Below, one piece after another: positions 10,341 to 30,346 of a DNA stretch of 64,000 bases. A program made the position numbers and the translations under genes. The first letter of the stretch is position 1, and every line of letters starts with the position of its first letter. Source of the DNA: Gammaproteobacteria bacterium (GTDB taxonomy: Bacteria > Pseudomonadota > Gammaproteobacteria > JACCYU01); assembly GCA_050740315.1 (NCBI GenBank), contig JBOIDC010000004.1, positions 4,918-68,917 of the forward strand, read 5' to 3'. Below the pieces are notes generated by a model. That model saw only the letters and a program-made list of their open reading frames with translations. It did not search any database and was not told the DNA's origin.

Positions 10341-10396
10341 TCGAGCCTTATTACGCCGTCAGCGAGGCGATTGGATGTGGCGTGCAGGTATGGAAT

Positions 10397-12637: not shown

Positions 12638-12677
12638 ACGCTGGATTATTCGATCCGGACGCCGCCGGCATTCATGA

Positions 12678-13160
12678 TCAGTAGGCGGGCTTTTCGCTGC
12701 GCAGAAACAGCAGCGCGCCCGACGGCCTTTCCGCCGCGCCATGCGGCAGCCCCCTGGGCGCGAAATGATAGTCGCCGGCTTTCAATATCACGCCTTCTCC
12801 GAGATGCAGTTCGCCCTCCAGCACCAGACATTCCTCGTCGGCCACGTGCACGTGCGCGGGCAGCCGCGCGCCAGGCTCGCGCCGCAGCCGGAACGATGTC
12901 GCGCGCGCGGCACTGATCAATAACCAGGTGTGCGGACGGCCGCGCTTGCCGTCGCATTTCGCGGCATGGCGCCAGACCTGCGGAAACACGTCGATCACGA
13001 CATCTTCCGCCATATCCGGCTATTTGGTGGTGGCCAGCGCGACCGTAAACGCGCGGCATGGTCGCCTCGTAAAACGCATTGAAGGCGTCCCTGTCGCGGC
13101 GCGCAATCCGGTCGATGAGCAGCGCGTAGTTTTCATCCGCCGCTCCGCCGTGACGCGGGC
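12678..13160 (-). pseudogene. Degraded ECF sigma factor / ChrR-type anti-sigma remnant: sigma region-2 fused to an anti-sigma cupin domain, with a frameshift
   Basis: ADENYALLIDRIARRDRDAFNAFYEATMPRVYG (sigma-70 region 2.1) lies in one frame. AEDVVIDVFPQVWRHAAKCDGKRGRPHTWLLISAARA (region 2.2-2.4) lies in another and runs directly into a cupin (HVHVADEECLVLEGEL...GDYHFAPRGLPHG). Sigma region 4 and the anti-sigma zinc domain are absent. Confidence 0.55.
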
Positions 13161-13535
13161 ATCGAGCGAATGCAGCGGGTTGGTCGACATGATTCGAAGT
13201 ATACGGAGCACGACCGCGACTAGGCAAACGGGCGGTCCCGATGTCCGAGTCTTCCACGGGTTGCGAGCCGGACGCGCGCGGATCACGCTCCACGCGCTAG
13301 CCTGTGATCATGGGCGACCTGCTCCGTGCACTGGCAACCTGGCCACGCTCCGCTATCATTCTAATGAATGGCTTGCAGCAGCATCAGTATGCGATGGTAC
13401 GCAAGGACATGACGCTCCCGGGTTGCCCATTTGCAGTTCGCATACTGAAACGGCATTACAGCGGTCATATTTCTTTTTTGGCGATGCCAGAAGACGTAAC
13501 CATCAGCCCGATCCTTGCCCTGAAGGAGGCCGAAC

Positions 13536-14930
13536 ATGGCGCTGTGGAAACCCGACCCGACCTTTTATCCCTCCCCCCGCATGGCGATGCAGGCGCCACC
13601 CGAAACGCTGGCGTACGTCGCAGCCTTCAATCCGACGCCTGATGGCCGCCCGGATGCGATGACCGTGGTGGACCTGGCGCCCGACTCGTCCAGCTATGGC
13701 CAGATCGTCGGCCGCACCGAGATGCCGAACGCCGGCGATGAACTGCATCACTTCGGCTGGAACGCATGCAGCTCGGCGCTATGCCCGTACGCGCCGCACC
13801 CGCACATCGAGCGGCGTTATCTGGTGGTGCCGGGGCTCCGCTCGTCGCGCATCCATATCATCGATATCAAGCCTGATCCCCGCAATCCGAAGCTCGTCAA
13901 GACCATCGAGCCGGAAGACGTTTTCAAACGCGCGCCGTATTCACGCTTTCATACGATCCATTGCGGGCCGGAGGGCATCTACATCAGCGCGCTGGGATCG
14001 CAGGACGGTGATGGGCCGGGCGGCATCTTTCTGCTGGATCACTTCTCGTTCGACGTGCTGGGCCAGTGGGAAATGGAGCGCGGCCCGCAGTATCTGGCCT
14101 ACGACTTCTGGTGGCATCTGGCGCACGACACGATGATTACCAGCGAATGGGGCACGCCGAACATGATCGAGAACGGTCTGGTGCCGGATCTGCTGCTGAA
14201 CGGGAAATATGGCCGCCACGTGCACATCTGGGATTTGCGCCGGCGGCGGCACGTGCAGGCGCTCGATCTGGGCGCGGAGCAGCAACTGGTGCTGGAATTG
14301 CGCGCCGCGCATGATCCCACCAGGACATATGGTTTCGTCGGCGTGGTGATCTCGCTCAAAGACCTGTCGAGTTCGATCTGGCTCTGGCATCGCGACAACG
14401 GCGAGTGGAAAATCCAGAAGGTCGTCGAGATTCCCGCCGAATCGGCCGAACCTGAAAACCTGCCGCCGTTGCTGCAAGGCTTCAAGGCAGTGCCGCCGCT
14501 GGTCACCGACATCAATCTGTCACTTGACGATCGGTGGCTGTACGTCTCGTGCTGGGGCACGGGCGAGCTGCGGCAGTATGACGTATCCGATCCGTTCAAA
14601 CCCGAGCTCACCGGTTCGGTGCATCTGGGCGGCATCGTGCGCCGCACGCCGCATCCCAAAAAACCAGATCAACCTTTGAACGGCGCGCCGCAGATGGTGG
14701 AGGTGAGCCGCGACGGCAAGCGCGTGTATTTCACCAACTCGCTGTATCACGCCTGGGACGAGCAGTTCTATCCGGAGGGCATGCAGAGCTGGATGGTGAA
14801 GCTCGATGCGAATCCCGCCGGCGGCCTCAGGATCGATCCGGACTTCTTCGTAGCGTTCCACGGCTACCGCGCACACCAGATCCGCCTGGACGGCGGCGAC
14901 TGTTCTTCGGATTCTTATTGCTATCCGTGA
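13536..14930 (+). CDS. Selenium-binding protein SBP56 family (methanethiol oxidase MtoX / SELENBP1 homologue)
   Basis: 464 aa with the family hallmarks recalled from SELENBP1: DELHHFGWNACSS, HCGPEG, LSLDDRWLYVSCWGTGELRQYD, C-terminal GGDCSSD. An AAGGAGG ribosome-binding site precedes the ATG. Confidence 0.9.
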   Translation: MALWKPDPTFYPSPRMAMQAPPETLAYVAAFNPTPDGRPDAMTVVDLAPDSSSYGQIVGRTEMPNAGDELHHFGWNACSSALCPYAPHPHIERRYLVVPGLRSSRIHIIDIKPDPRNPKLVKTIEPEDVFKRAPYSRFHTIHCGPEGIYISALGSQDGDGPGGIFLLDHFSFDVLGQWEMERGPQYLAYDFWWHLAHDTMITSEWGTPNMIENGLVPDLLLNGKYGRHVHIWDLRRRRHVQALDLGAEQQLVLELRAAHDPTRTYGFVGVVISLKDLSSSIWLWHRDNGEWKIQKVVEIPAESAEPENLPPLLQGFKAVPPLVTDINLSLDDRWLYVSCWGTGELRQYDVSDPFKPELTGSVHLGGIVRRTPHPKKPDQPLNGAPQMVEVSRDGKRVYFTNSLYHAWDEQFYPEGMQSWMVKLDANPAGGLRIDPDFFVAFHGYRAHQIRLDGGDCSSDSYCYP

Positions 14931-15592
14931 GCGAACTATGGCCCTGGCTGACCCTGTTCGGTCTGGGCGCATACCACGGCATCAATCCCGGCATGGGCTG
15001 GCTGTTCGCCGTCGCCTTGGGCTTACAGGAAAAACGGCGCCGCGCGGTGCTGGCGGCGATCCCACCGATCGCACTGGGCCATGCGCTCTCGATAGGCGTG
15101 GTGGTCGGCCTGTTGTGGCTGGCGCAAGCGAACTTACCGGAAACCGCCCTGCGTTACGGCGCGGCGGCCCTGCTGTTCGGGTTGGGGATCTATCGCTTGG
15201 TGCGCGCGCGGCATCCAAAGTGGGTCGGCATGCGCGTCAATTTCCGTGATTTGACCTTGTGGTCTTTCCTGATGGCTTCCGCGCACGGCGCCGGCCTGAT
15301 GCTCGCGCCGATCCTGCTCGGCTGGTCTTACATGAATCATGCGGCGCATGGTGCGCACGCCGCGCATTTGCACCACCTCTCCGGCGAGCAGATCGCGGCG
15401 TTGAACGGCCCGGTGCCGTGGCTGATGGCCGTGATCGTACACACATTCGGGTATCTCGCAGTGGCGGCGCTCGTCGCGTTGCTCGTTTACGAAAAGCTCG
15501 GCTTAGCTATCCTGCGGCGCGCGTGGTTCAACCTCGATCTCTTGTGGGTGGTCGCCTTGATGATCAGCGGCGGCGTGATCCTCATCTTGTGA
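14918..15592 (+). CDS. His-rich integral membrane protein (HupE/UreJ-like metal-transporter-like; family uncertain), translationally coupled to the SBP56 gene
   Basis: Start overlaps the SBP56 stop by 13 nt. About 6 TM segments; HAAHGAHAAHLHHLSGE loop. Confidence 0.55.
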   Translation: MLSVSELWPWLTLFGLGAYHGINPGMGWLFAVALGLQEKRRRAVLAAIPPIALGHALSIGVVVGLLWLAQANLPETALRYGAAALLFGLGIYRLVRARHPKWVGMRVNFRDLTLWSFLMASAHGAGLMLAPILLGWSYMNHAAHGAHAAHLHHLSGEQIAALNGPVPWLMAVIVHTFGYLAVAALVALLVYEKLGLAILRRAWFNLDLLWVVALMISGGVILIL

Positions 15593-15650: not shown

Positions 15651-16205
15651 ATGGCGTCGGTACGCAGAATCGATTGGCTGAGTGTCGAGGACTATCTCGT
15701 CGCGGAAGAGGTGGCCGAGGTACGGCACGAGTATGTCGCGGGCGCCGTGTACGCGATGGTGGGTGCCACCGCGCGCCATAATCGCATCGCCGTCAGGCTC
15801 GCATCTCGTCTGGAGTCGCACCTTGCTGGTTCGCCGTGCCAGACGTTCATCTCCGACATGAAAGTCTGCGCCGCCGACGCGTTTTATTACCCGGACGTAA
15901 TCGTGACCTGCCAACCCGTGGCGCCCGAGGCCGTTTACCTCACCGAACCCGTGCTGATCGCGGAAGTGCTATCGGAATCCACCGAAGGACGCGACCGGCT
16001 GGAAAAGTGGGCGGCTTATCGCGCGCTGCCGAGCCTGCGCGAATACGTGTTGATCGCCCAGGACCGCCCGGCCGTTGAAGTTTATCGGCGCAATGAAGAG
16101 GGCTGGGATCAAATCAGCCTGGATTCGGGTGAGACCATGGAACTCGTCTCGCTTGACCTCGAGGTTCCCCTAGACGAACTCTACGCCGGATTGCCGACGG
16201 CGTGA
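15651..16205 (+). CDS. Uma2-family (DUF820) endonuclease
   Basis: EYVAGAVYAMVGATARHNRIAVRLASRL... pattern typical of Uma2 PD-(D/E)xK proteins; 184 aa. Confidence 0.75.
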   Translation: MASVRRIDWLSVEDYLVAEEVAEVRHEYVAGAVYAMVGATARHNRIAVRLASRLESHLAGSPCQTFISDMKVCAADAFYYPDVIVTCQPVAPEAVYLTEPVLIAEVLSESTEGRDRLEKWAAYRALPSLREYVLIAQDRPAVEVYRRNEEGWDQISLDSGETMELVSLDLEVPLDELYAGLPTA

Positions 16206-16447
16206 TTGGGTCGGCTAACTTCCGCAACTGAAACTTGCCAAAGCAATTCAGGCTTCGAAGGACGAAACCGCATCGTTGCCGATTGCTATTTGATCCCGTA
16301 GCGTAGGGCTTGGCGCGGTTGCGGCGCACGCGGTTCAATCCTGACCTGCTTGGGGGATCGCTCTGATAACCAACGGAGGCGCGATTCTTCTCGTCTAAGG
16401 CACGACTACTTTTCAGAATTACTGTCTTCCGATGTACAATCGCGTCA

Positions 16448-17503
16448 ATGGGGCGCACGGTGTACACAAATATAAGAGAATCCCTGCGGGAGCTTTACTT
16501 AAAAGATAGCTGCTCTTGGCTGGTCGGCTTCAGCGGGGGCAAAGACAGTACCATGTTGGCATCTTTGGTGTTCAATGCGGTGCTTTCAGTGCCTACCAAC
16601 CAGCGCAAGAAGCCTGTCGCTATTCTTTGTACCGACACGCGCGTGGAGATTCCAGCCATTGTTGAGATGGTTGAAACAACGTTGGCGCGGATGCACAAGC
16701 ATTCCCAGCAGCACGATCTCAACATCGAAGTACACTTGCTAAAACCGCCACCCGAGCAATCGTTCTGGGTCAACATAATCGGCCGCGGCTATCCGCCACC
16801 TAACCGTAAGTTCCGCTGGTGTACGCAGCGCATGAAAATTGACCCCGTCACTGCTTTCGTTAATCAGCGGCTGGGACATTGGGGCGAGCACCTCGGCGCG
16901 CGTCGCGCCGAAAGCTCCACTCGCGGCCAAACGATGGCGGGGCGCGAAAACCGCAATGGCCTGCATCGCCATCCCGATTTGCCCCGCGTGTGGGTGTCCA
17001 ATCCCATTGAATTTCTCACTACCGAGGAAGTCTGGGCGTATCTGTTACAGAAAGCTAATCCTTGGGGCGGCGACAATCGTGCCCTTTATAAGCTCTACGC
17101 CAGCGCCTCCAATGGGGAATGTCCCATTCAAATCGACACCAGCACTCCAGCCTGCGGGCACTCACGATTTGGCTGCTGGACATGCACAGTCGTTGTGCGA
17201 GACAGGGCCAGCGAGGGCCTGCTCGCCGCCGGCGACGAACGCATGGAACATCTGCTCGGTTTTCGCGAGACGCTCCTAGAATTCCGTGATCCTGAAAATG
17301 GCTGGCGCGACAACCGCCGTATGAACGGTGCGCGGGCACCTGGCCCGCTGACAATTGAAGCGCGGCGTGAACTTCTTAAACGCCTGCTCAAATTACAAGA
17401 AGAAACAACCCTGCCACTAATTACTCCAGAAGAATTATTGTTAATTCAGCAAATGTGGAAGGCGGCGCGCGACCCGACGGCGGTCGTGGCGTTGCCCGAA
17501 TAA
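16448..17503 (+). CDS. PAPS-reductase-family PP-loop ATP pyrophosphatase, DndC/SspD-like (DNA sulfur-modification type)
   Basis: PP-loop FSGGKDST. C-terminal CGHSRFGCWTCTVV cysteine cluster reminiscent of the DndC/SspD family; 351 aa. Confidence 0.7.
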   Translation: MGRTVYTNIRESLRELYLKDSCSWLVGFSGGKDSTMLASLVFNAVLSVPTNQRKKPVAILCTDTRVEIPAIVEMVETTLARMHKHSQQHDLNIEVHLLKPPPEQSFWVNIIGRGYPPPNRKFRWCTQRMKIDPVTAFVNQRLGHWGEHLGARRAESSTRGQTMAGRENRNGLHRHPDLPRVWVSNPIEFLTTEEVWAYLLQKANPWGGDNRALYKLYASASNGECPIQIDTSTPACGHSRFGCWTCTVVVRDRASEGLLAAGDERMEHLLGFRETLLEFRDPENGWRDNRRMNGARAPGPLTIEARRELLKRLLKLQEETTLPLITPEELLLIQQMWKAARDPTAVVALPE

Positions 17504-17694
17504 TGAATGACCAGCGGGGTGCCATAATGAATGCCGACCTCAACAAATCAAACCGCTTGCGAGAAACGGAAAAGAAGGTCGCCCAGGAACTCGGCATTCG
17601 CCCCGACACGTTACGCCGCATGTTGGCGAAGGTGGAAGAATACAGTGAAAGTCACCGCGCCCAGGTTTGCCAGATGATTTGCTTAACATCCTAA
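17500..17694 (+). CDS. Small putative HTH DNA-binding protein
   Basis: Short ORF with AQELGIRPDTLRRMLAK helix-turn-helix-like segment. Weak; start uncertain (ATG 17500 or 17524). Confidence 0.3.
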   Translation: MMNDQRGAIMNADLNKSNRLRETEKKVAQELGIRPDTLRRMLAKVEEYSESHRAQVCQMICLTS

Positions 17695-17759
17695 AGGATG
17701 ACCTTTTCGCTCATGAAGAGCGCCGCCCGGTCTCCTCGCGCAATTAACCGCCATCTTGC

Positions 17760-18674
17760 GTGCACGTATTAACTCAAGAACGGCGCTGGCTTAAAGTCGC
17801 CGCGAACCTCAGGGTTGACCGCAAGCACAATATCGCCCCCCACAAGCCGCTTTTGCTATTGGTCGTTGTAGGGCTTGCCGAAGAAGGAAAACTCGCGCGG
17901 CCAGTCTTAGCGCTGACCGGCGAGCTCACATTCCGTTTTCTTGCATTCTGGACAATCGTCGCCAACCGCCGCTCACAGCGACCGGACATTCGCCTGCCGT
18001 TCTATCATCTCCATAACGACGGTTGCTGGACGCTGCTAGACGTCGAAGGAACGACTACTAGCGAACGTAGCCGTGCAGTTACCGCGCAGCTTGACGCACA
18101 GTTCCACGCCTGCCTGCACAATCCCGACTTCCGCGAGCAGTTTCGAAGAATCCTGATCGCGAGGTACTTTACCGACGCCGGCGAACGCGCCGCTCTTTAC
18201 GACTTGACTGACCTGCCAGCTCCGCCCGATGCCATCGAAGAAGCGGACGCCAACCTTTACGTCGAGTCGCGGAGGCGAGGGCGCGAAGCGCGCTTCCGGC
18301 TGACCGTCGTACCGGCCTACAACTACACCTGTGCACTTACCGGTTATCGCTGCGTTACGGTAAATGCCGGCAGCATCGTGGACGCTGCTCACATCCACCA
18401 GTTCGCTGACAGTCGCAACAACTACCCGCAAAACGGTATTGCGCTCTGCAAGAACGCTCACTGGCTTTTCGATCAAGGTCTGTGGTCGCTTACAGACGAC
18501 TACGAGATTATTGTCGCCACACACCGCTTCCATGAGTCTGGAGATAGCGCGCTGCTGCTAGCCCGAATGGCGGGCCATCGCATTCTGCTTCCCGGCAAGC
18601 GAGACTATTGGCCTGACAAAGCGTACTTGGCGTGGCACCGACAACATAGGTACATCAAAGAAAAGACCGAATGA
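17760..18674 (+). CDS. HNH endonuclease with ~190-aa N-terminal uncharacterised (possibly modified-DNA-sensing) domain
   Basis: C-terminal HNH motif: CALTGYRC...DAAHIHQFADSRNNYPQNGIALCKNAHWLFDQGLW; 304 aa. Confidence 0.8.
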   Translation: MHVLTQERRWLKVAANLRVDRKHNIAPHKPLLLLVVVGLAEEGKLARPVLALTGELTFRFLAFWTIVANRRSQRPDIRLPFYHLHNDGCWTLLDVEGTTTSERSRAVTAQLDAQFHACLHNPDFREQFRRILIARYFTDAGERAALYDLTDLPAPPDAIEEADANLYVESRRRGREARFRLTVVPAYNYTCALTGYRCVTVNAGSIVDAAHIHQFADSRNNYPQNGIALCKNAHWLFDQGLWSLTDDYEIIVATHRFHESGDSALLLARMAGHRILLPGKRDYWPDKAYLAWHRQHRYIKEKTE

Positions 18675-18681
18675 TGGAATT

Positions 18682-21599
18682 ATGAGCATCGTTCCAAAAC
18701 ATCGTGGAGCTTCTTTTCACAAGTGTGATCTTCAAGTCCATACGCTCAGGGATGCGAATTGGAATGGGCCCTTTCATCGGCTGAATGACCGAGTAGCTTT
18801 TGCTCAGGCGCTGGTTGCCGACTGCCGGCGCAAGAGCATCGAAGCGATTGCGATCACGGACCATCACGATCTGTGCCTTTGGAGAATTATTCACGATGCT
18901 GCTCAGAATGAGCAGAAGCCGGCTGGTTCGGCAAACCAAGAAGAGGCTTCCCCTGTCGTTTTTCCTGGTGTTGAGCTCACCTTGTCCAACCCCGCTTGCC
19001 AAGCATTGCTGATACTCGATCCAGACTTGACTGACAAGACCCTAAACTACATTTGGGGCGCTCTCGGAGCGACTCCCTCGGGCGTGGACGAGGAAAAGAC
19101 AACTCAGACGGTTGCACTGCCCCTTAACAAGTCCATTGCAACGATCGCCCAAGCGCTCTCCCAAATTCGGCTTAACCCTGAGGAAGCAGATCCAAACAAG
19201 TTCAGATCGCTTAGAGGAAAATTCATATTGTTACCGAATGTGAAGTGTGGTGGACATAAGACGATCATGCGAAAAGGTAACCAGGCGGCTTATACCACGA
19301 TGCCGTTTGTGGGAGGCTACATTGAGGGATGCGAGTATTCATCAATTAATGTGGGAGACTGCAATATTCTTGAAGGACGAGTACAAGCTTGGGGATCAAA
19401 GAGTGTCGCCGTATTTCAGACCTCAGACTGCCGCGAGGCGAAAGTTGTCACTATCGATGGCAATAAGCACACCGATTTCATCAATCTCGGCAAGTGGCCG
19501 ACGTGGGTGAAATGGGCACAACCGTCAACGGAAGCCTTGCGACAGGCATGCTTGGCAAGGCAGTCACGGATCAGCCATACCGAGCCCAGCTACCCTCTTC
19601 TGCAGATCGTGGGGGTGAAGGTGAGTGACAGCCAGTTCCTCGGTCCAGTGGAACTCGGTCTCAGCCCGCAGTTCAATGCTTTTATCGGCGGGCGAGGCAC
19701 CGGTAAATCCTCGTTGATCGAGTACATTCGGTGGGCACTCTGCGATGACCCTGTGGAAGTTTCCGAAATGGTGGAGCTTCCAAATTTTCAAAAGCGCAGG
19801 AAAGCCCTGGTGGAAGCGACACTCAAACCATCCGGAGCGAAAGTGACTGTGTTTTACAAGAAAAACGAGGTCATCTACAAAATTGAAAGGACTATTACCG
19901 CCAAGGAGGACGCCATCGTGGTTGTGGATCCCTCTGGGGCGTCGCAGCAGATGTCGTCGGCTCAAGCTCGCAGACAATTTCCGGTTGTATCGTATGCCCA
20001 GAAGCAGCTAAGTTGCGTGGGTACTCTGCCGGACGAAATTAAACGGCTCATTACAGATCCTATCAGTGAGCGTCTGGCGCAGATTCAGGATCGAATTGAG
20101 ACCTCCATCCTTCCACAAATTAAAGAGCAGCGCGCAAGAGAACTACGTCTCGCCAGCCTGAACACACAGCTTGCCGACATCGCTACATCGCTCAAGGACA
20201 TAAAAGATCAGATTCACGCGCTTGAGATACAATTGCAGGATCTCGCGCCAGAGCAGCAGAGCATCATCTCGTCGCATGAGCTGCTGAGTCAGCAACATCA
20301 GTGGGTGAATCGCTCGGCGGAACTCCCGAGCAAGGTAGCAGAACTCTTGTTGCAGATGCGCCATCAGGTAAGTGCGCTAGGCAAGATTGATCTGCCCGAT
20401 GCCCTACCCAACTCGATACCGAACTCGATCCAAGTCGACGCGATCTCGGCGTCTGCCAACGCCTATGTGAAGAGAGTGCTGGATCAGTTAGATGCCTTGA
20501 TCGCTGATGCGCAATCCGGCAGCTGGCTCAACAAAGCAGATCGCCAAGCCTTAGAGCAACTCCAAAAAAAGCGTACGGTGCTCACCAACGGGAATACAAC
20601 GAATGCGTCAAAACGAGCGCGAAAAACCAGACGCAGATGGAGGAGATTCAAAAGCTCAACAAACAAGTCGGTGAACTCGAAGCCAAGCAGTCAGCGCTAG
20701 AAGCGGAGCGCAAGACTCTTATGGCAGTCTTTGACCGATTTGCTGACACGCCGTGGAAGGCTTTTATGGACGCGGTGCGTGAGCGCGCGAACGTCTTGAG
20801 GGACCAGTGCACCATCATTGGCGGGCAGGCTCAGTACGAATTCAAGCCGCACCTCGCTTTTTGTGGTGATGATCGTCAGGTCCGCGAGTCACTGTATAGC
20901 TTGGTGCAAAACAGAAACGTCAGAGACAGCGATCAGAAAGTAAGAGACTTGGCAGCTATTGTTACCTCTGCGGATCACCCGCTTCAGCGGTGGCGAGAGG
21001 TGGTGGCTGAGCTGGATGCGCTTCTGGCAAGCAAGGGCTCTAACGTACTGCCGCAGGCGCCACTATTTACAAGCTCAGGTTTCACGACAGCTAATCTTGA
21101 ATCAATTCGAAACGGGGTCACACAGGACGCGTTGGAGCAAATCCGTTTCTTGAACATCGACGATCGAATCGAATTCGTCTTTCGCATGGGCAAAAAGACA
21201 GATGGATCGGATAACTACATTCCTTTTGATTCTGCATCACCAGGACAGCAGGCTACGTGTCTGCTTCGCACGTTACTCGCGCAATCAGGTGCGCCCCTGC
21301 TGATAGATCAGCCCGAAGAAGATCTTGATAACGAGCAGATCCACCTGCTTTCCGAGCAAATTGCGGAAACCAAGCACAACAGGCAAATGCTGTTTGTAAG
21401 CCACAATGCAAATATCGTCGTCAACGGAGATGGGGAACTTATAGCCTGTTTCTGCTACCGCGACCCTAACGACAACACCCGCGGGAAGATCGAGCCGGTC
21501 GGCTCTATTGACTACGCTCCTGTGCGCGAAACTATTACATCAGTAATGGAAGGGGGCCGCCGGGCATTCGAATTACGCAAAGAAAAATATGGTTTTTGA
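18682..21599 (+). pseudogene. PHP-domain phosphoesterase fused to SMC/ABC-type coiled-coil ATPase (PplA-like / DndD-like), split by a frameshift around 20560-20640
   Basis: N-terminal PHP metal-ligand pattern (CDLQVHT...AIAITDHHD). Walker A FNAFIGGRGTGKSSL at ~aa 335; long coiled coil. The ABC signature SPGQQ, Walker B LLIDQPEEDLD and H-loop FVSHNANI lie in a second ORF (20637-21599) in a different frame. An A7 run sits at 20562-20568. Confidence 0.7.
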
Positions 21600-21740
21600 G
21601 CGCGGAACCATAAAGATTGACTACCTGATAATCGTGCCGCTAGTCGACGTACAGGAAACTTCCTTCGGTTGATAAGCTAAGAATAGCGAGTGATCGGATC
21701 GAGGCGGTTCCCAATTGGCGGCCGTTGTTAGCGATTCTCT

Positions 21741-21989
21741 ACTATGCCGTACTCGCGAGCTGACGAACATGCAATAACTCGCTGGATGTCAGCGGTTCGA
21801 TCTGAGATTCGCGCATGGTGACCACCGCAACGGTCTCCCCCACGGCGTTGAACACTTCCAAACTATAACCCGGTCCTGCTCAGATCGCCCCGGATGGTAT
21901 TCAACCACAGTCGCCACGTCTCCGGCGCGAAATCTATGCTCTGGCAAGTCCGTTTTCAGTGCTACTCGGGTAAATAGCTGGTATTTCAT
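21741..21989 (-). pseudogene. DUF4926-like small protein, frameshifted
   Basis: MKYQLFTRVALKTDLPEHRFRAGDVATVVEYHPG in one frame. GYSLEVFNAVGETVAVVTMRESQIEPL continues in another frame after an in-frame stop. Confidence 0.4.
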
Positions 21990-22001
21990 GTCTTGTCCAG
22001 A

Positions 22002-22322
22002 TTAAAGGGTGATGAACTTGGTCTTGCCGGTTCCTTCTTCAGTCATCCAAATCGTCGCGACGCGGAGAACATCGCCATTTGGTCCAGTTATGGCGCCGCG
22101 AATCATATACTTCGGACCATACTCCGTCTGATCGATCAATTCGGCTTCAATCGACAGCAGTTGCTCGCGTATATCATCGAGGAGTCTGTGTGAATTTTCG
22201 AGCGTGTAACCCGCCCGAGCTAATAACGCTGATTTGGCATCCGCTGACCGCCATTGAAGAAGATGGCTTGTAACCTTTTCGGTGGCAATGAGGGCACAGG
22301 TGGCAACCTCATCGGCCCTATC
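22002..22322 (-). CDS. DUF6883-like protein (partner of DUF4926; putative toxin-antitoxin-like pair); start codon unclear
   Basis: Translation ...ENSHRLLDDIREQLLSIEAELIDQTEYGPKYMIRGAITGPNGDVLRVATIWMTEEGTGKTKFITL matches the DUF6883 C-terminal pattern. The ORF is open right up to the stop of the upstream desulfurase gene, with no canonical in-frame start. Confidence 0.4.
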   Translation of the reverse strand, partial: DRADEVATCALIATEKVTSHLLQWRSADAKSALLARAGYTLENSHRLLDDIREQLLSIEAELIDQTEYGPKYMIRGAITGPNGDVLRVATIWMTEEGTGKTKFITL

Positions 22323-23453
22323 TCAGCCACGAAGGTCCTGAGCCGCTTGCTTCACGACAGCCGCAGTCAAATCAATCTCGTGAGCCTGCTTCATAGCGTT
22401 GAGTGAAAAACGAACCATTTGCCGTGCGGCCGGCTGATTCGGCTTCATTGCCTTAACAACATGCGACGGTTCGTCGGAATCAGCCAAGCAAGCCGACCCT
22501 CCCGACGCGCAAATACCCGCTTGGTCAAATAGTAGCAACAATGCTTCGGATTCAACGCCGTGGAAGGTAATATTGGTCGTGTTTGCCAGCCGCTGAATCT
22601 TATGCCCATTCAGCTCGGTATCCGGTACCGAGTCCAGAATACTTTCCTCTAAAGTATCGCGGAGCGGGCGCACTTTCTTCTCATAACTCGGCAAGCTCTT
22701 ACGCGCGAGTTCGGCGGCTCTGCCCATGCCGACGATCAAGGCGACGTTTTCCGTACCGCCACGCCGATTACGCTCCTGGTGTCCGCCGTGGACAAACGGC
22801 AAAAACGGTGTCTTACGGCGGACGTATAATGCGCCTATTCCCTTCGGTGCGTGGAATTTGTGGCCGGTGAGCGACAAATAATCGGTCTGCACCTCGCGCA
22901 CATCAATATCGATTTTACCAACGGCCTGTACCGCGTCGCAGTGGTATAAGACCCCTCGCGAGCGGCAAATGTCAGCTATCGCGTTCACCGGGAATAGCAC
23001 TCCGGTTTCATTATTCGCCCACATGAGCGAGACCACAGCCGTTTCATCCGAAATCGCGTTCGCCAAATCCGCCAGCTTCAAGACACCGTCGTAATCCACC
23101 GGCAGATAAGTTACCCGATAGCCCTCGCGCTCGAGCGCCATACAGTAGTTCAGCACCGAGGAATGCTCGACCGCTGATGTGACGATGTGCCGTTTGCTCG
23201 GATTGGCTTTCAGCGCCGCAAGGATGGCCGAATTATTGCTCTCCGTCGCGCAAGACGTGAAAACGATCTCCAGCGGGTGTGCTCCGATCAGCTCTGCGAC
23301 CCGCGCCCTGGCCGTCTCGACCGCCGTCTTCAGCTTCGACCCAAACTTATAGCTGCTGGATGGATTGCCCCACTCAGATGTGAAGTAAGGCATCATCGAG
23401 TCCAGCACTTCCGGGGACACCGAAGTAGTTGCATTACTATCAAGGTAAATCAT
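22323..23453 (-). CDS. Cysteine desulfurase (class V aminotransferase, IscS/NifS/DndA-like), stand-alone
   Basis: MIYLDSNATT N-terminus, PLP-lysine region SLTGHKFHAPKGIGALYV, active-site SGGSAC. No iscU/iscA/hscBA follow. Confidence 0.9.
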   Translation of the reverse strand: MIYLDSNATTSVSPEVLDSMMPYFTSEWGNPSSSYKFGSKLKTAVETARARVAELIGAHPLEIVFTSCATESNNSAILAALKANPSKRHIVTSAVEHSSVLNYCMALEREGYRVTYLPVDYDGVLKLADLANAISDETAVVSLMWANNETGVLFPVNAIADICRSRGVLYHCDAVQAVGKIDIDVREVQTDYLSLTGHKFHAPKGIGALYVRRKTPFLPFVHGGHQERNRRGGTENVALIVGMGRAAELARKSLPSYEKKVRPLRDTLEESILDSVPDTELNGHKIQRLANTTNITFHGVESEALLLLFDQAGICASGGSACLADSDEPSHVVKAMKPNQPAARQMVRFSLNAMKQAHEIDLTAAVVKQAAQDLRG

Positions 23454-23745
23454 ATTCCCCTTACAAGTAATTAATCCAAACTCGGTCGACGGCACCCGCA
23501 GCTCGCCCCCGAGCTCACGGTCGGCCGCGACCTCGGATTCGATGGGCAGTTTATGTCAGGGACACCTTGGCCCTGATCCTAAACCCATTGCGCGAGTGCC
23601 GACGGCGTTCAGCGTCGAACGGGGCCTCAGTGCCCCTATTAGCCTCGGCATAGTTTATCCCACGTTCGGTGGCCTATTTGAGCGAATGCAATACGGTCAT
23701 GGGCATTGAAAACTCACGGTACTAGCCGCAGTTCACCTCCGCAAC

Positions 23746-24545: not shown

Positions 24546-25151
24546 ATGCGGCGCCATAAAAGCTTGAGCATTACTCGCCTCGGTTTAATCTTCGTTTGGG
24601 CCGGAGCAATCCTGTTCCTCGGGCCGGGTTGCGACCCGGAGACGGCTACCGACCGCGAACCCGCGGGCGCCAACGCCGATGCGGATCACGACGCAGCGGG
24701 CAAGAAAACCGCAGCGTCCAAACAGGCCGCGGCGGTGTTCGATGCGAGCTTCCACAAACTCGAAGACTGGAACCAGATGCAATCGCTCTCGAAATGGCGC
24801 GGCCAGTATCTGGTGCTGAATTTTTGGGCGACCTGGTGCAAGTCCTGCCACCACGAAGTGCCGGAGCTGAACAAGCTCTACAACCAGTTCAAGGACAAAA
24901 ATACCGTGGTCGTGGGTCTTGCCGTGGATAATGCCGACAAGGTCAAAGATTATGCGGCGAAATATGGCGTCGATTATCCGATCCTCGTGGGCGGTAACGA
25001 GGCGCTGGAATTATCGAAAAAGATGGGCAACAAGGTCGTCGGACTGCCCTTCACGATCATGATCACGCCGCAAGGCGAAGTGGTCGAGACCATTCTCGGC
25101 GCCACCGAGAAAGGCACTCTGCCCAAGGTTCTCACGCCGCATCTAATGTGA
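24546..25151 (+). CDS. TlpA/ResA-like periplasmic thiol:disulfide oxidoreductase (thioredoxin fold), probable lipoprotein
   Basis: Signal peptide ...AILFLGPGC, WATWCKSC active site. Likely start is the internal ATG at 24546. Confidence 0.8.
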   Translation: MRRHKSLSITRLGLIFVWAGAILFLGPGCDPETATDREPAGANADADHDAAGKKTAASKQAAAVFDASFHKLEDWNQMQSLSKWRGQYLVLNFWATWCKSCHHEVPELNKLYNQFKDKNTVVVGLAVDNADKVKDYAAKYGVDYPILVGGNEALELSKKMGNKVVGLPFTIMITPQGEVVETILGATEKGTLPKVLTPHLM

Positions 25152-25189
25152 GACTTCGGGCATTCAAACCCAAACAGGAGGTAACCGTT

Positions 25190-26731
25190 ATGCGACTATT
25201 AAAAATTCCGACTGCCAATACGCGCAGGGCGAGTCCCAGGGTATTGGCGGCGGCCTTCGGCGTAGGGCTTGGGGTCGCCGTGTCGGGCGCGGCGCTCGCC
25301 AAGGACTACCCAACCGTCACAGTGGTTGATCCGTCGCCGGTGAACTGGCTTTGGATAACGTGGAACACCATGGAAGAAGCGGTGCGCGTGGACTACAACG
25401 GCCACACGCAACCCGCGCTGGCGGAGAGCTGGGAATGGAAAGATAACCAAACGCTGACGCTAGACATGCGCGACGACGCGGTGTTTCAGGACGGCAGCGC
25501 GTTCGATCCCGCGGTGTTCAAGCGCAGCTTCGACGAGGTGCAGAAGTGGGAAAACCCGCATCCGCCGGGCGCCTGGCTGAATTTCTCCAAGCAGGCCAGC
25601 ATGGAGACGCCGGATGATGACACGGTGGTGTTCAACACCGCGATGGTCGACGGCACCACCATCACCAAACTGCGCGGCATGCACGTCGGCAGCCAGAAGT
25701 TCTGGGGGCAGGGCGGTTTCAACACCGCCGAAGGCTCATCCGAAGGGAATTGGTGAGTCATCAAAGAACCCGGTCCGTGGGGGACTGGGCCATTTGAACT
25801 GGTAGCAGGTACGTCGTTGCTCGACAAGCGTTCTCCCGAAGTTGTGCTGGAGCCCAATGAAGAATACTGGAATCCGGCGCGTAAACCGACGGTGCGCGTG
25901 GTGTTCGACAATGTTATTCCGAAGGCCGAGGCCGTGAAAGACGTCGGCAGCGCGGACGGCGAGATCGATATTGTCACTGAACTGACACCGGCCGAGGCCC
26001 AGCAGGTGGAAGACAGCGATGCCGCAAATGTGGTCGCGAGCGACTCGAAGACCGTGCTGCTCGGGGTCTTCAATCAGACCAGCGGCGATTCCAAATGGAA
26101 TGACGTCAATCTGCGCAAGGCGGTCAACTACGCGGTGGATCGGCAAGGCGTCATCGATGACGCGATGATGGGTTACGGCAATCTCATGCCGGCCACCATC
26201 CTCGAAGGGAATTTCGGTTACAACGATAGTCTGGAGCCTTATGCGCATGACCCGGAGCAGGCCAGGCGGCTTGCGAAGGACGCCGACAAGACCGTCACCA
26301 TCGTGACCGACGAAGCGCACAAGGGCGTGGCCGATGCCGTGGCCGCGGATCTGAACGCCGCCGGTTTCGACGCGACCGTTAAGGTCGGAGAGCCTGCAGG
26401 CGAGTGGGACATCTGGCTAGTCGAGCACTTCGACTGGTCGCCGGAGTTCCCCGCCGCCGTGGTGCATCGCGAGTTCTTCGGCGACACGGGCGGGTTCCTC
26501 AAGTCACCGGGCGACAAGCAACTACAGGGCTTGATCGATCAGGCGATGAGTACCGTCGATAAGGACGAGCAGGAAGAAATCACGCAGGCGATCGAGAAAC
26601 ACATCTACGATCACGCCGATGCGCTGTTGCTGTTCGCGCCGCAAAAACTCTACGCGGTGCGCGACGGCGTGGACTTCACGCCTTACAAGTCCACGGTGCT
26701 GGAACTGGCGGAGACCATGGTGGACGAGTAA
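25190..26731 (+). pseudogene. ABC transporter substrate-binding protein, family 5 (peptide/nickel/opine type) with a single in-frame TGA at 25754-25756. Either a nonsense pseudogene or, less likely, a UGA-Sec readthrough.
   Basis: AGGAGG ribosome-binding site then ATG 25190. Signal peptide; family-5 motifs (ALAESWEW..., GTGPFEL, EPNEEYW). The reading frame is continuous across the TGA, and ORFs 25148-25756 and 25817-26731 are in the same frame. Total ~513 codons, normal for the family. Confidence 0.6.
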
Positions 26732-28793: not shown

Positions 28794-28803
28794 TCGCAAG
28801 AAT

Positions 28804-28900
28804 GGAAGAGATTCGATCCCCGGTGGGGCGTCCGGACTTCAAATCCGGGAGGGGCCGTCACGCGGTCCTTGGTGGGTTCGACTCCCACTCTCTTCCGCCA
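28804..28900 (+). tRNA. selC: tRNA-Sec (selC), anticodon UCA
   Basis: 97 nt: GGAAGAG...GGACTTCAAATCC...long variable arm...GGTTCGACTCC...CTCTTCCGCCA. Near-identical architecture to E. coli selC. Confidence 0.9.
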
Positions 28901-28921
28901 TTGTGAATCCCGGAATTCCGC

Positions 28922-30346
28922 ATGGATGAAGATAGGTCCCGCCGGTTCTCGGCGCTGCCGTCGGTGGAAAAGCTGCTGCGTACCGAGTCGCTGGCGCGGC
29001 AAAGCGAACGCTACGGTCGGCGCGCCGTATTGGACGCCGTGCGCGCCGCGCTGGAACAAGCGCGCGCGGCGATCCGCACCGGCGACTGGAAGACGAACGA
29101 TAGCCTTGGTCTTCTGCAGGCGCGTTGCGAGTCTTTGCTGGAAAAACAGTTTCAATCGGCGCTCAGGCCGGTTTTTAATCTTACCGGAACCGTTTTGCAC
29201 ACCAATCTCGGCCGCGCACCGTTGCCGGCGGCGGCGGTGCACGCGCTTCGCCTGGCAGCGGGCGCCTGCAACGTCGAATACGATTTGACAACCGGCGAAC
29301 GCGGGCAGCGCGAGACGCACATCGAAAAGCTGCTCGTGGAACTCACCGGCGCGGAGGCCGCAACGGTAGTCAATAACAATGCCGCAGCCGTGGTGCTCGC
29401 GCTGAGCACCCTGGCGGCGGGGCACGAAACCATCGTCTCGCGCGGCGAGTTGGTGGAGATCGGCGGCGCCTTCAGAATCCCGGACATCATGACGAGTTCG
29501 GGCAGCCGCCTGTGCGAAGTGGGCACCACGAACCGCACGCATGCGAGAGACTATCGCGATGCGATTGACCCGAACACGGCGCTGATCATGCGGGTACACA
29601 CCAGCAATTACGAGATCCGCGGATTCACCAAGTCCGTGCCGGAGAAAACCCTGGCGGCTCTGGCGCACGAGCGCGGCCTGCCCCTGCTGGTGGATCTGGG
29701 CAGCGGCAGCCTGGTAGATTTGGCGCAATACGGTTTGCCGCACGAACCTACGCCCGCCGAGAGTCTGGACGCCGGCGCCGATCTCGTTACATTTTCCGGC
29801 GACAAGTTGCTCGGCGGGCCACAGACGGGACTGATCGTCGGACGCAAGGAATTGATCGACAGGATCAACCGGAACCCGCTCAAGCGCGCCTTACGGATCG
29901 ACAAATTGATCATGGCCGCGCTGGAGGCGGTGCTGAAGTTGTACAAATCCCCGGAGTTTTTGGCTAGAGATTTACCGGGCTTACGACTGCTGACCCGGCC
30001 CGCCAGTGAGATCGAGGAGATGGCGCGCAGGCTGCGTCCGCGCATGCAGGATGCATTGTCCGGCGTTTGTGAAATCGAGGTGGAGGCGTGCGAGAGTCAA
30101 ATCGGCAGTGGTTCGCTGCCGGTGGATTGCCTGCCGAGCTGGTGCATTTCGATCAGGCCCTCGTTCGCGCAAAAAAATGCAGGCCGTTTTCTGGAGCAAA
30201 TGACATCGCGTTTGAGAGATCTGCCCGTTCCCATCATCGGCCGCACCCACAAAGGCGCGATCAAATTGGATTTGCGCTGTCTGGAAGACGAGCCATTGTT
30301 CATCGAACAGCTGAACGCGCTACCGGACCAGCCTGCGGCCGGCTAG
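28922..30346 (+). CDS. selA: L-seryl-tRNA(Sec) selenium transferase SelA
   Basis: SALRPVFNLTGTVLHTNLGRA, VVSRGELVEIGGAFRIPD, EVGTTNRTHA, FSGDKLLGGPQ (PLP-lysine). Collinear with E. coli SelA. Confidence 0.92.
   Translation: MDEDRSRRFSALPSVEKLLRTESLARQSERYGRRAVLDAVRAALEQARAAIRTGDWKTNDSLGLLQARCESLLEKQFQSALRPVFNLTGTVLHTNLGRAPLPAAAVHALRLAAGACNVEYDLTTGERGQRETHIEKLLVELTGAEAATVVNNNAAAVVLALSTLAAGHETIVSRGELVEIGGAFRIPDIMTSSGSRLCEVGTTNRTHARDYRDAIDPNTALIMRVHTSNYEIRGFTKSVPEKTLAALAHERGLPLLVDLGSGSLVDLAQYGLPHEPTPAESLDAGADLVTFSGDKLLGGPQTGLIVGRKELIDRINRNPLKRALRIDKLIMAALEAVLKLYKSPEFLARDLPGLRLLTRPASEIEEMARRLRPRMQDALSGVCEIEVEACESQIGSGSLPVDCLPSWCISIRPSFAQKNAGRFLEQMTSRLRDLPVPIIGRTHKGAIKLDLRCLEDEPLFIEQLNALPDQPAAG

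What the first reader, a model, noticed from the sequence alone, without database searches (positions are those of the whole stretch)
16210..23745. Low-GC island with a Dnd/Ssp-like sulfur-chemistry gene set in a non-canonical combination
One compositionally distinct block holds four gene types. They are a DndC/SspD-like PP-loop ATP pyrophosphatase, an HNH endonuclease with an unknown N-terminal domain, a ~980-aa PHP-phosphoesterase + SMC/ABC ATPase, and a divergently transcribed stand-alone IscS/DndA-like cysteine desulfurase. Canonical phosphorothioation loci are dndA + dndBCDE or sspABCD. Here DndB/SspB and DndE are not evident. The ATPase carries an extra N-terminal PHP domain, which could supply phosphoesterase/nickase chemistry. 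A nuclease sits between the modification-like genes. The combination looks like a variant or hybrid DNA-backbone-modification / restriction module, or two juxtaposed defence systems (DndC-like + HNH; PplA-like), rather than a described operon.
Basis: partly seen in the sequence, partly recalled or inferred. Interest (0 to 1): 0.85.

Follow-up and report, generated by a model that had tools for sequence, protein, structure and literature searches.

The report
Cut-down dnd cassette with sulfur-reading nuclease
The island is a stripped-down DNA-phosphorothioation (dnd) locus: a shortened DndC, a sulfur-binding HNH nuclease and DndA, with an unrelated broken defence ATPase inserted. Sister loci suggest the three dnd-derived genes still work without DndD and DndE.

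Summary
The low-GC island is real and all four gene types are present, with corrections.

- **DndC.** The 351-aa protein is a true DndC. Two 1-bp deletions have removed its C-terminal ~85 residues.
- **HNH nuclease.** Its "unknown" N-terminal domain is the known sulfur-binding domain (SBD) of phosphorothioate (PT)-dependent nucleases.
- **The ~980-aa ATPase.** It is a TrlF-family PHP + ABC ATPase, split into two ORFs by an A5-to-A7 expansion.
- **The desulfurase.** It is the cluster's own DndA.

In about 160 related loci the SBD-HNH gene sits where dndD used to be, flanked by different leftovers of dndD and dndE. In the close HNH clade it never occurs with intact dndCDE.

TrlF occurs in no other such locus. 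Its slot holds other defence genes elsewhere, so it is unrelated cargo and not a DndD substitute.

Two pairs of sister loci that lack DndD and DndE show strong purifying selection on DndC, HNH and DndA (dN/dS 0.03–0.14). The trio is therefore probably a working writer-plus-reader unit. This copy is freshly eroded.

It is not a four-gene hybrid. I rate it a new variant of a known kind, of moderate interest.

The parts
16448..17747 (+). dndC. An intact N-terminal ORF (16448-17503, 351 aa) carries the PP-loop S29-GGKDS34 and the Cys cluster. The out-of-frame C-terminal remainder follows. Two 1-bp deletions lie near 17475 and 17663, and there is an in-frame 3-aa deletion (GHWGE[AIL]HLGARR).
   Evidence: TIGR03183 353.5 bits (cut-off 290.4), matching profile positions 3-362 of 447. 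PADLOC DndC E = 3e-115. It is 84-86% identical to 432-436-aa homologues. The deletions are seen against four homologues in alignment A1. tblastn finds three pieces in three frames.
17760..18674 (+). SBD-HNH nuclease, intact. The N-terminal sulfur-binding domain has cavity residues H28, K29, L79, P80 and H83. The C-terminal HNH has H211, N225 and H234.
   Evidence: HNH_2 E = 4.4e-11. NF045808 PT-DNA_restrict 129.8 bits over profile 5-280 of 284, below the cut-off of 180. phmmer against PDB 8H0L (SBD of Hga) E = 1.8e-6, with the PHK and LPxYH motifs aligned. The cavity residues of Hga are given in PMC10602919. The best PDB fold hit is 8H0L, prob 1.00, TM 0.54-0.57, for a model of only moderate confidence. 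Precomputed PF26340 DNA-SBD_ScoMcrA. The residues are invariant or nearly so in 40 homologues.
18682..21599 (+). TrlF-family gene (PHP phosphoesterase + ABC/SMC-type ATPase). It is split by a frameshift in the A7 run 20564-20570 into ORFs 18682-20700 and 20637-21599. It is unrelated cargo.
   Evidence: NF045780 gives 249.7 + 180.0 bits over positions 1-621 and 644-944 of 944. Ppl scores only 79 + 86 bits. Homologues are single ORFs of about 965 aa. They read LEQLQ-KAY with a shorter A run, so A5 has become A7 here. The PHP fold model has pLDDT 91.8 and its top PDB hits are all PHP domains. Pfam PHP alone is weak, E = 0.06. No dnd genes occur in four homologue contexts.
21757..21989 (-). DUF4926 gene remnant, frameshifted near 21873-21894.
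   Evidence: tblastn with the DUF4926 proteins of L001 and L003 gives two pieces in different frames. The same gene lies next to dndA in L001, L003, L084, L085 and L086.
21993..22322 (-). DUF6883-like ORF between DUF4926 and dndA.
   Evidence: PF21814 E = 4.6e-14. Homologous to the N-terminal part of the 189-aa protein next to dndA in L003.
22323..23495 (-). dndA: cysteine desulfurase of the dnd cluster, intact and transcribed divergently.
   Evidence: Aminotran_5 E = 2.3e-85. PADLOC DndA E = 9e-145. It is below the NCBIfam cut-offs for both NifS (524.9 against 530.75) and DndA (388.1 against 480). It is 70-77% identical to the desulfurase at the same relative position in L001, L003, L004, L005 and L044. 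Its GC3 of 0.64 matches the island.

Best explanation
The island is a cut-down derivative of a canonical dnd cluster (dndC-dndD-dndE/helicase-x-dndB, with divergent dndA), not a new four-gene operon.

**What happened to the cluster.** An SBD-HNH nuclease gene occupies the place of dndD. The genes dndD to dndB are gone. What remains is a trio: DndC, here reduced to its ~346-residue N-terminal PP-loop / Fe-S domain; the SBD-HNH nuclease; and DndA.

**The cargo slot.** The stretch between the nuclease and dndA is variable. In this genome it carries an unrelated TrlF-family PHP + ABC ATPase gene, inactivated by a 2-base expansion, and DUF6883/DUF4926 genes.

**How it most likely works.**
- Shown: the nuclease keeps the complete sulfur-binding cavity and the HNH catalytic residues.
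- Inferred from characterised relatives: it binds Rp-phosphorothioate links in DNA and cuts nearby.
- Shown in sister loci that lack DndD and DndE: DndC, HNH and DndA co-diverge under strong purifying selection.
- Inferred from that: DndA still passes sulfur to the DndC N-domain, and the trio acts as a compact phosphorothioate writer plus reader-nuclease. DndD and DndE are either not needed, as reported for TdpC, or are supplied from elsewhere in the genome.

**This copy.** It shows four recent frame-breaking indels and is probably partly or wholly decaying. The nuclease and DndA are the intact genes.
For: **Identities.**

**Canonical relatives with >80% identical DndC.** L003 and L004 carry dndC-dndD-dndE/AAA-(x)-dndB with divergent dndA.

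**The HNH gene sits where dndD was.**
- After an N-terminal part of DndD: L044 (1-445), L109, L125.
- Before a C-terminal part of DndD: L007 (483-689), L016, L101, L129, L143.
- Next to a 33-41-aa end of DndE: L001, L011, L013, L095, L115.
- Sources.

**Survey.** Of 43 HNH loci with at least 5 kb on both sides, 29 have dnd genes. In the clade with HNH at least 60% identical (n = 18), none has complete dndCDE.

**Shared junction.** The dndC-HNH junction aligns as one ~2.08-kb block with L001, L005, L007 and L009.

**TrlF is cargo.** It is absent from all other loci. It stands alone elsewhere. The slot holds GmrSD_N, PRTase-CE, NERD or toxin-antitoxin genes in L085, L086, L083, L001 and L084.

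**Selection in loci without DndD/DndE** (dN/dS for DndC / HNH / DndA).
- L011 vs L013: 0.028 / 0.12 / 0.07, at dS 0.24-0.49. DndC is cut at residue 327 in both.
- L108 vs L110: 0.042 / 0.094 / 0.141, at concordant dS 0.27-0.33.
- Sources.

**Independent loss of the DndC C-terminus at the same boundary.** Window at 346, L009 at 324, L011 and L013 at 327.

**Frameshifts confined to the island.** Fifteen flanking genes (~25 kb) match their profiles end to end or domain by domain.
Against: - In the close clade the HNH gene never coexists with intact DndD and DndE, and its arrival coincides with dndD truncation. That is what antagonism between a PT-dependent nuclease and a PT writer predicts.
- DndC is also found in every stage of decay: stubs of 41-65 aa in L088 and L107, an internal deletion in L093, cut at 276 in L104 and L105. 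DndA is lost or fragmentary in L009, L083, L084 and L086.
- About a third of HNH loci have no dnd gene nearby.
- Published genetics and reconstitution hold that DndC needs DndD and DndE (PMC10853773 says the module would be non-functional without them).
- All characterised SBD-HNH enzymes cut PT-DNA rather than spare it (PMC7461809).
- In the window itself, DndC carries a 3-aa deletion in a conserved motif and 7 unique changes at columns at least 97% conserved, against a mean of 2.2 in 113 homologues.
- dS between the window and its relatives is saturated, so selection on this copy cannot be measured.
- No modification or cleavage data exist.
Confidence: 0.5

Rival explanations
1. Type IV enzyme plus relics. 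The SBD-HNH is a stand-alone PT-dependent restriction endonuclease that attacks incoming PT-modified DNA. It can only settle in a dnd+ genome if PT writing stops, so it is found inserted in dndD. dndC and dndA are leftovers with no role in the system. dndA may serve general sulfur metabolism.
For: - Characterised SBD-HNH enzymes cut PT-DNA, and the authors attribute the rare dnd adjacency to mutated dnd clusters (PMC7461809).
- 0 of 18 close-clade loci have intact dndCDE.
- Leftovers of dndD and dndE flank the HNH gene.
- There is a decay series for DndC and DndA.
- HNH-only loci exist: L006, L008, L087.
- HNH dS is 2-4 times lower than that of flanking DndC and DndA in several pairs. This suggests a younger, spreading cassette.
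- There are four indels in this island.
Against: - Strong purifying selection on DndC and DndA after loss of DndD and DndE in two independent pairs, one of which shares the same truncated DndC.
- In Planctomycetota the same HNH clade lies directly beside complete, intact dndB-dndA / dndC-dndD-dndE (PADLOC on L022; L030, L035, L046, L047, L049, L141). That is hard to reconcile with pure antagonism.
Confidence: 0.3
2. All four genes form one system in which the PHP + ABC ATPase replaces DndD, with an SMC-like ATPase and PHP as nickase, for backbone modification or restriction.
For: - dndC, HNH and TrlF are co-oriented with gaps of 12 and 7 nt.
- DndD and TrlF are both ABC/SMC-type ATPases.
- There is one promoter-like site just upstream of dndC, but the count of such sites is not above chance.
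Against: - TrlF is absent from about 160 other HNH/dnd loci.
- TrlF homologues stand alone in unrelated contexts.
- The slot is occupied by other defence genes elsewhere.
- There is no PADLOC DndD hit. The only hits to PbeC, the DndD-like ATPase, are marginal (E 0.0025-0.0036).
- The gene is frameshifted.
Confidence: 0.03
3. The frameshifts are assembly errors of a metagenome-assembled genome. dndC (433 aa), TrlF (~970 aa) and DUF4926 are intact in the organism.
For: - The source is a MAG.
- One indel lies in a homopolymer, the A7 run.
- The out-of-frame C-terminus of DndC is still as conserved as in intact homologues. The C-terminal to N-terminal dN ratio is 3.1, within the normal range of 1.9-3.2. 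The changes are therefore either very recent or not real.
Against: - Fifteen flanking genes (~25 kb) show no break. At the island's indel rate about 15 would be expected.
- The two dndC deletions are not in long homopolymers.
- Comparable truncations and frameshifts occur in independent assemblies (L009, L066, L068, L083).
Confidence: 0.12
4. The desulfurase belongs to the surrounding selenium-utilisation genes, as a NifS-like selenocysteine lyase feeding SelD, and is only by chance next to dndC.
For: - SelD fusion, SBP56, SelB, tRNA-Sec and SelA flank the island.
- The best NCBIfam hit is NifS.
Against: - Its composition is that of the island (GC3 0.64).
- It is 70-77% identical to, and syntenic with, the desulfurase beside dnd genes in unrelated genomic contexts, including the neighbouring DUF4926.
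Confidence: 0.03

Closest known systems
Dnd loci with an SBD(wHTH)+SAD/SRA+HNH nuclease encoded immediately downstream of the modification genes (Krishnan et al. 2024, PMC10853773)
   Same: A PT-binding wHTH/SBD fused to HNH and encoded inside a dnd locus. It is proposed there as the real restriction partner of DndABCDE. The same HNH clade lies beside complete dndBA/CDE in Planctomycetota.
   Different: The protein here has two domains and no SRA. That survey was anchored on the DndD-DndE core, and here DndD, DndE and DndB are absent. The nuclease occupies the dndD position. DndC has lost its C-terminal domain.
PT-dependent type IV restriction endonucleases of the SBD-HNH type (SprMcrA, EcoWI, ScoMcrA; PMC7461809, PMC6224610) and SBD-Hga (PDB 8H0L; PMC10602919)
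   Same: The domain order SBD then HNH, a size of about 300 aa, and conserved sulfur-cavity residues (HK ... LPxxH) and HNH motif.
   Different: It scores below the NCBIfam NF045808 cut-off (129.8 against 180). About 60-67% of loci of this clade carry dnd genes nearby, against less than 3.6% reported for the family. The activity is untested.
Tdp system (tdpABC; An et al. 2025, Nat Chem Biol, known here only through citing papers PMC12914056 and PMC13223576)
   Same: A DndC-family enzyme, with a cysteine desulfurase, is reported to make PT without DndD and DndE, next to restriction genes. This is the precedent for a DndC-only writer.
   Different: The DndC here is 84-88% identical to DndC of canonical dndCDE clusters, so it is not a separate lineage. 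No PDB chain resembling DndC or TrlF was found by sequence. The TdpA and TdpB architectures could not be compared because the paper is not held.
PT-sensing effectors SspE and DndI (PMC9646914, PMC11662687)
   Same: A single-protein nuclease that reads the host's PT marks and is coupled to a PT writer. This is the logic proposed for the trio.
   Different: They are unrelated folds (DUF262/GmrSD-type NTPase plus nuclease). The protein here has no NTPase domain.
TrlF family (NF045780; trlR-trlF-trlG temperature-restriction locus of Photorhabdus, bioRxiv 10.1101/2020.06.02.129163) and the Ppl anti-phage protein
   Same: An N-terminal PHP domain plus a Rad50/SMC-like ABC ATPase of about 950 aa. It matches the TrlF profile end to end.
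   Different: It is frameshifted. There is no TrlG or TrlR neighbour here or in four homologue contexts. It is only distantly Ppl-like (79 + 86 bits against a cut-off of 1000).

Membership tests
Dnd PT-modification system (dndABCDE) | DndC PP-loop sulfurtransferase (TIGR03183) | tested here: met
   353.5 bits against a cut-off of 290.4, but only profile positions 3-362 of 447 are matched. The C-terminal domain is lost through two frameshifts.
Dnd PT-modification system (dndABCDE) | DndD ABC ATPase and DndE, the functional core according to PMC10853773 | tested here: not met
   tblastn with DndD, DndE and DndE/helicase proteins of L003 and L022 finds nothing in the 64-kb window. The rest of the genome could not be searched.
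Dnd PT-modification system (dndABCDE) | DndA cysteine desulfurase next to the cluster | tested here: met
   PADLOC DndA E = 9e-145. It is syntenic with, and 70-77% identical to, the desulfurase of dnd clusters. It is below the NCBIfam DndA cut-off (388 against 480).
Dnd PT-modification system (dndABCDE) | PT modification of genomic DNA | not testable with these tools
   This needs LC-MS/MS of dinucleotides, iodine cleavage or SMRT sequencing.
SBD-HNH PT-dependent restriction endonucleases (NF045808) | Sulfur-binding domain with a hydrophobic cavity | tested here: met
   phmmer against 8H0L gives E = 1.8e-6. H28, K29, L79, P80 and H83 align with H25, K26, L75, P76 and H79 of Hga. The best fold hit is 8H0L, prob 1.00. 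PF26340 is precomputed for this protein.
SBD-HNH PT-dependent restriction endonucleases (NF045808) | HNH catalytic motif | tested here: met
   PF13391 E = 4.4e-11. H211, N225 and H234 are invariant in 40 homologues. The model of this region has low confidence (pLDDT below 50).
SBD-HNH PT-dependent restriction endonucleases (NF045808) | Curated family score | tested here: not met
   129.8 bits against a cut-off of 180, although the alignment runs end to end (5-280 of 284). It is a related clade, not the curated family.
SBD-HNH PT-dependent restriction endonucleases (NF045808) | Cleavage stimulated by PT | not testable with these tools
   This needs biochemistry.
Ssp system (sspABCD-E) | SspD, SspB nickase and SspC ATPase | tested here: not met
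   SspD scores E = 8.9e-10 against DndC 3e-115. No SspB or SspC hit for any ORF.
Tdp system (tdpABC) | TdpC-type stand-alone writer with the TdpA/TdpB restriction pair | not testable with these tools
   The primary paper is not held. The library holds no Tdp profiles. PDB sequence searches with DndC, HNH and TrlF give no Tdp-named chain.
TrlF family (NF045780) | End-to-end match to the PHP + ABC ATPase profile | tested here: inconclusive
   The two ORFs match positions 1-621 (249.7 bits) and 644-944 (180.0 bits). Each is below the cut-off of 350, and their sum is above it. The PHP fold is confirmed. The gene is interrupted.
TrlF family (NF045780) | Operon partners TrlG (Alba_2 + HATPase_c_4) and TrlR | tested here: not met
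   The neighbours are HNH and DUF4926/DUF6883. No such partner appears in L079-L082.
Ppl anti-phage protein (NF042955 / PDLC02208) | Family score | tested here: not met
   79.4 and 85.9 bits against a cut-off of 1000.

The most novel reading that the evidence does not exclude
DndC(N-domain) + DndA + SBD-HNH is a self-sufficient, three-gene phosphorothioate restriction-modification system. A canonical-type DndC writes PT without DndD and DndE, and its C-terminal domain is dispensable. An SBD-HNH, a class so far known only as PT-dependent type IV enzymes, acts as the cognate reader that tells marked self from unmarked invader. The cassette spreads by overwriting dndD to dndB in resident dnd clusters. 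Its DndC and DndA flanks frame a slot that collects other defence genes.
Probability: 0.3. Interest if true: 0.8.

Novelty: new variant of a known kind. Interest (0 to 1): 0.5.

Why it matters
Phosphorothioate systems known so far (Dnd, Ssp, Tdp, BREX type 4) pair a multi-protein writer with dedicated restriction proteins. SBD-HNH enzymes are treated as their enemies, because they cut PT-marked DNA.

Here one SBD-HNH clade is bound to dnd loci in most cases. It sits in the place of dndD. In two lineages that lack DndD and DndE it is conserved together with DndC and DndA.

If the trio is active, three things follow:
- A canonical DndC could work without its ABC-ATPase/DndE scanner.
- An SBD-HNH could be a cognate partner of the writer, not an opponent.
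- The cassette would be a very small PT tool set.

If it is not active, the loci document how a modification-dependent nuclease takes over and erodes the modification cluster it targets.

For this window alone the practical message is modest. It holds an eroding defence island with one intact candidate nuclease.

Tried and rejected
- **Programmed -1 frameshift in TrlF.** The site reads A_AAA_AAG, the same as the dnaX slippery site (from my own knowledge). I rejected this because homologues are single ORFs with a shorter A run and one residue fewer.
- **Identity with Tdp.** The primary paper is not held and the citing papers give no architectures. PDB sequence searches found no relative of DndC or TrlF.
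- **"Pure decaying remnant".** This was my working explanation until the dN/dS tests contradicted it for two pairs of sister loci.
- **Decay signal in the window's own DndC.** Unique changes at conserved columns are only mildly raised, 7 against a mean of 2.2 and a maximum of 9. dS to all relatives is saturated.
- **Island borders.** Only a 15-nt imperfect direct repeat was found (16189-16203 and 23594-23608), which may be chance. There is no integrase, and the nearest tRNA is far away.
- **Promoter and terminator scan.** Counts are not above chance.
- **Rfam.** Only the two tRNAs were found.
- **Phage and plasmid collections.** No phage match. Plasmid homologues of the HNH protein are at most 33% identical.
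- **Pfam PHP on TrlF.** It fails on sequence alone (E = 0.06). The domain needed the fold search.

Full report
**1. The observation**

The block is compositionally distinct. GC is 0.51-0.57 between 16001 and 24000, against 0.59-0.66 around it. GC3 is 0.58-0.65 for its ORFs, against 0.70-0.83 for the neighbours.

It holds the ORFs 16448-17503 (+), 17760-18674 (+), 18682-20700 (+), 20637-21599 (+) and 22323-23495 (-). The window's proteins are on record as coming from a "MAG: Gammaproteobacteria bacterium".

**2. What the genes are**

*DndC.* The first protein is a genuine DndC. TIGR03183 scores 353.5 bits against a cut-off of 290.4, and PADLOC DndC gives E = 3e-115, against SspD at 9e-10. It matches only profile positions 3-362 of 447.

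*SBD-HNH.* The second protein has a C-terminal HNH_2 domain. It aligns end to end with NF045808, "phosphorothioated DNA-binding restriction endonuclease", but at 129.8 bits it is below the cut-off of 180.
- Its N-terminal 140 residues match the sulfur-binding domain of Hga (PDB 8H0L, E = 1.8e-6).
- The five residues that form the sulfur cavity in Hga are H25, K26, L75, P76 and H79 (PMC10602919). They align with H28, K29, L79, P80 and H83 here.
- Those residues, and H211, N225 and H234 of the HNH motif, are invariant or nearly so in 40 homologues.
- An AlphaFold model has mean pLDDT 69, good for residues 1-150 and poor for 174-231. Its best PDB fold matches are the two 8H0L chains (prob 1.00, TM 0.54-0.57).

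*TrlF.* The third and fourth ORFs are the two halves of one TrlF-family gene. NF045780 positions 1-621 score 249.7 bits and positions 644-944 score 180.0 bits. The match to Ppl is much weaker. Pfam sees the PHP domain only at E = 0.06. A confident model of residues 1-310 (pLDDT 91.8) matches PHP domains of PolC, Pol III alpha, TM0559 and RNase AM.

*DndA.* The divergent gene is a class-V cysteine desulfurase.

*The gap.* The "empty" stretch 21757-22322 (-) holds a DUF6883 ORF and a frameshifted DUF4926.

**3. Broken genes**

- Close homologues of DndC are 432-436 aa. In the window the last ~85 residues are readable in two other frames. An alignment with four homologues shows two clean 1-bp deletions. 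There is also an in-frame 3-aa deletion.
- TrlF homologues are single ORFs of about 965 aa. At the break they read LEQLQ-KAY. The window has two extra A's, so A5 has become A7. The resemblance to a slippery heptamer is therefore not conserved.
- DUF4926 is also frameshifted.
- By contrast SelD-fusion, SBP56, SelB, SelA, PolA and ten other flanking genes (~25 kb) match their profiles fully.
- The breaks are therefore specific to the island. They look recent, because the out-of-frame DndC C-terminus is no more diverged than in intact genes.

**4. Relatives**

DndC more than 80% identical occurs in canonical clusters: dndC-dndD-dndE/AAA-(x)-dndB with divergent dndA (L003 Nitrospira, L004). It also occurs in dndC-HNH ... 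dndA loci without DndD, DndE and DndB (L001, L002).

I scanned genomes and metagenomes with the HNH protein and mapped Dnd proteins onto 154 loci.

*Close relatives of the window's HNH.* The gene sits where dndD was.
- After an N-terminal DndD fragment: L044 (1-445), L109, L125.
- Before a C-terminal fragment: L007 (483-689), L016, L101, L129, L143.
- Directly followed by the last 33-41 residues of DndE: L001, L011, L013, L095, L115.
- The dndC-HNH junction of the window aligns as one block with L001, L005, L007 and L009.
- Among 18 loci whose HNH is at least 60% identical, none has complete dndCDE.

*Planctomycetota.* The same clade (43-56% identical) lies right beside complete dndB-dndA / dndC-dndD-dndE. 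PADLOC confirms all five in L022.

*Overall.* 29 of 43 loci with enough flank have dnd genes. This compares with less than 3.6% reported for SBD-HNH enzymes in general (PMC7461809).

The association of an SBD(wHTH)+SRA+HNH nuclease with Dnd loci has been described and read as an alternative restriction partner (PMC10853773). That survey was anchored on DndD-DndE, so it would miss loci that lack them.

**5. TrlF is cargo**

TrlF is found in no other HNH/dnd locus. Its homologues stand alone, once inside a CBASS / SIR2-HerA island.

The position between HNH and DUF4926/dndA carries other genes in other loci:
- a GmrSD_N protein in L085;
- PRTase-CE in L086;
- NERD in L083;
- toxin-antitoxin pairs in L001 and L084.

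This fits the published observation that defence genes are often embedded in other defence systems (bioRxiv 10.1101/2024.01.29.577857).

**6. Relic or working unit?**

*Signs of decay.*
- DndC is reduced to stubs in L088 and L107, has an internal deletion in L093, and is cut at 276 in L104 and L105.
- DndA is lost or fragmentary in L009, L083, L084 and L086.

*Signs of function.* Two pairs of loci that share an architecture without DndD and DndE show strong purifying selection on all three genes (Nei-Gojobori).

| Pair | dN/dS DndC | dN/dS HNH | dN/dS DndA | dS |
|---|---|---|---|---|
| L011 vs L013 (identical DndC truncation at residue 327) | 0.028 | 0.12 | 0.07 | 0.24-0.49 |
| L108 vs L110 | 0.042 | 0.094 | 0.141 | 0.27-0.33, concordant |

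Sources.

The DndC C-terminus was lost independently at nearly the same boundary in the window (346), L009 (324) and L011/L013 (327). This suggests that the N-domain is the unit that matters once DndD and DndE are gone.

HNH dS is often 2-4 times lower than that of its flanks. L005's DndC is as close to canonical L003 as to other trio DndCs. The cassette therefore seems to spread by recombination into resident clusters.

**7. Mechanism**

*Shown.* The domain content, the conserved cavity and catalytic residues, the synteny, the selection in sister loci, and the breaks in this copy.

*Inferred.*
- DndA hands sulfur to the DndC N-domain, which still thiolates DNA. It does so either on its own, as reported for TdpC (PMC12914056), or with DndD and DndE encoded elsewhere.
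- The SBD-HNH reads the mark.

*Unknown.* Whether the mark protects, as with DndI (PMC11662687) and, as I recall it, TdpAB, or targets, as with the type IV enzymes.

*Main rival.* A type IV nuclease that displaced the writer, leaving relics. This rival explains the exclusion of DndD and DndE best. It does not explain the selection on DndC and DndA, or the Planctomycete loci.

**8. Verdict**

The finding is real and non-canonical, but it is not a four-gene hybrid. It is a dnd-derived trio plus unrelated, broken cargo.

All the parts belong to known families. As far as the papers I could search show, the recurrent trio without DndD and DndE, kept under selection, is not described.

This particular copy is eroding.

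Noticed in passing
window 25148-26731 (+), with a TGA at 25754-25756: A family-5 periplasmic solute-binding protein gene has an in-frame TGA. Reading through it gives one continuous SBP_bac_5 match (profile 3-353 of 368). A hairpin starts 7 nt after the TGA (-22 kcal/mol, z = -1.8). The gene lies about 1 kb upstream of selB, tRNA-Sec and selA. It is either a candidate selenoprotein or a nonsense pseudogene.
   Followed up: partly
window 8685-15592 and 26841-30346: The island is inserted in a selenium/sulfur neighbourhood. This comprises a TsoB/DsbD-like protein, an oxidoreductase-SelD fusion (10397-12742, -), SBP56 selenium-binding protein (13536-14930), SelB (26841-28793), tRNA-Sec (28804-28900) and SelA (28922-30346).
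   Followed up: partly
window 16189-16203 and 23594-23608: A 15-nt imperfect direct repeat (GATTGCCGACGGCGT / GAGTGCCGACGGCGT) lies near both ends of the low-GC block. It could be an insertion scar or chance.
   Followed up: no
L001, L005, L084, L011, L013 (HNH compared with the flanking dndC and dndA): Synonymous divergence of the HNH gene is 2-4 times lower than that of the dndC and dndA genes beside it (for example L001 vs L005: 0.22 against 0.86 and 1.12). The loci are mosaics, and the nuclease gene appears to have spread more recently than its flanks diverged.
   Followed up: partly
L020, L022, L030, L034, L141, L150 (upstream of or next to the HNH gene): In Planctomycetota a ~756-aa helicase-type protein (PADLOC mREase_IV / PbeA-like) accompanies the SBD-HNH beside complete dnd clusters. 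Shorter matches occur in Kuenenia-type loci (L053, L055, L057, L060).
   Followed up: no
L085 9211-10884, L086 8902-11676, L083 8939-9952: The slot after the HNH gene holds a GmrSD_N (DUF262) protein, a PRTase-CE protein or a NERD nuclease in different metagenomes. A conserved dndC-HNH / DUF4926-dndA frame behaves like a hotspot that collects defence genes.
   Followed up: partly
window 15651-16205 (+): A Uma2-family putative restriction endonuclease (also PADLOC candidate PDC-S03) with host-like composition lies directly upstream of the island.
   Followed up: no
window DndC ORF; L022 13235-14839: A PADLOC model labelled 'Type II methyltransferase' (PDLC03333) matches DndC proteins strongly (E = 4.5e-72 and 1.9e-101). 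That model apparently contains a DndC-like domain and could mislabel DndC genes.
   Followed up: no
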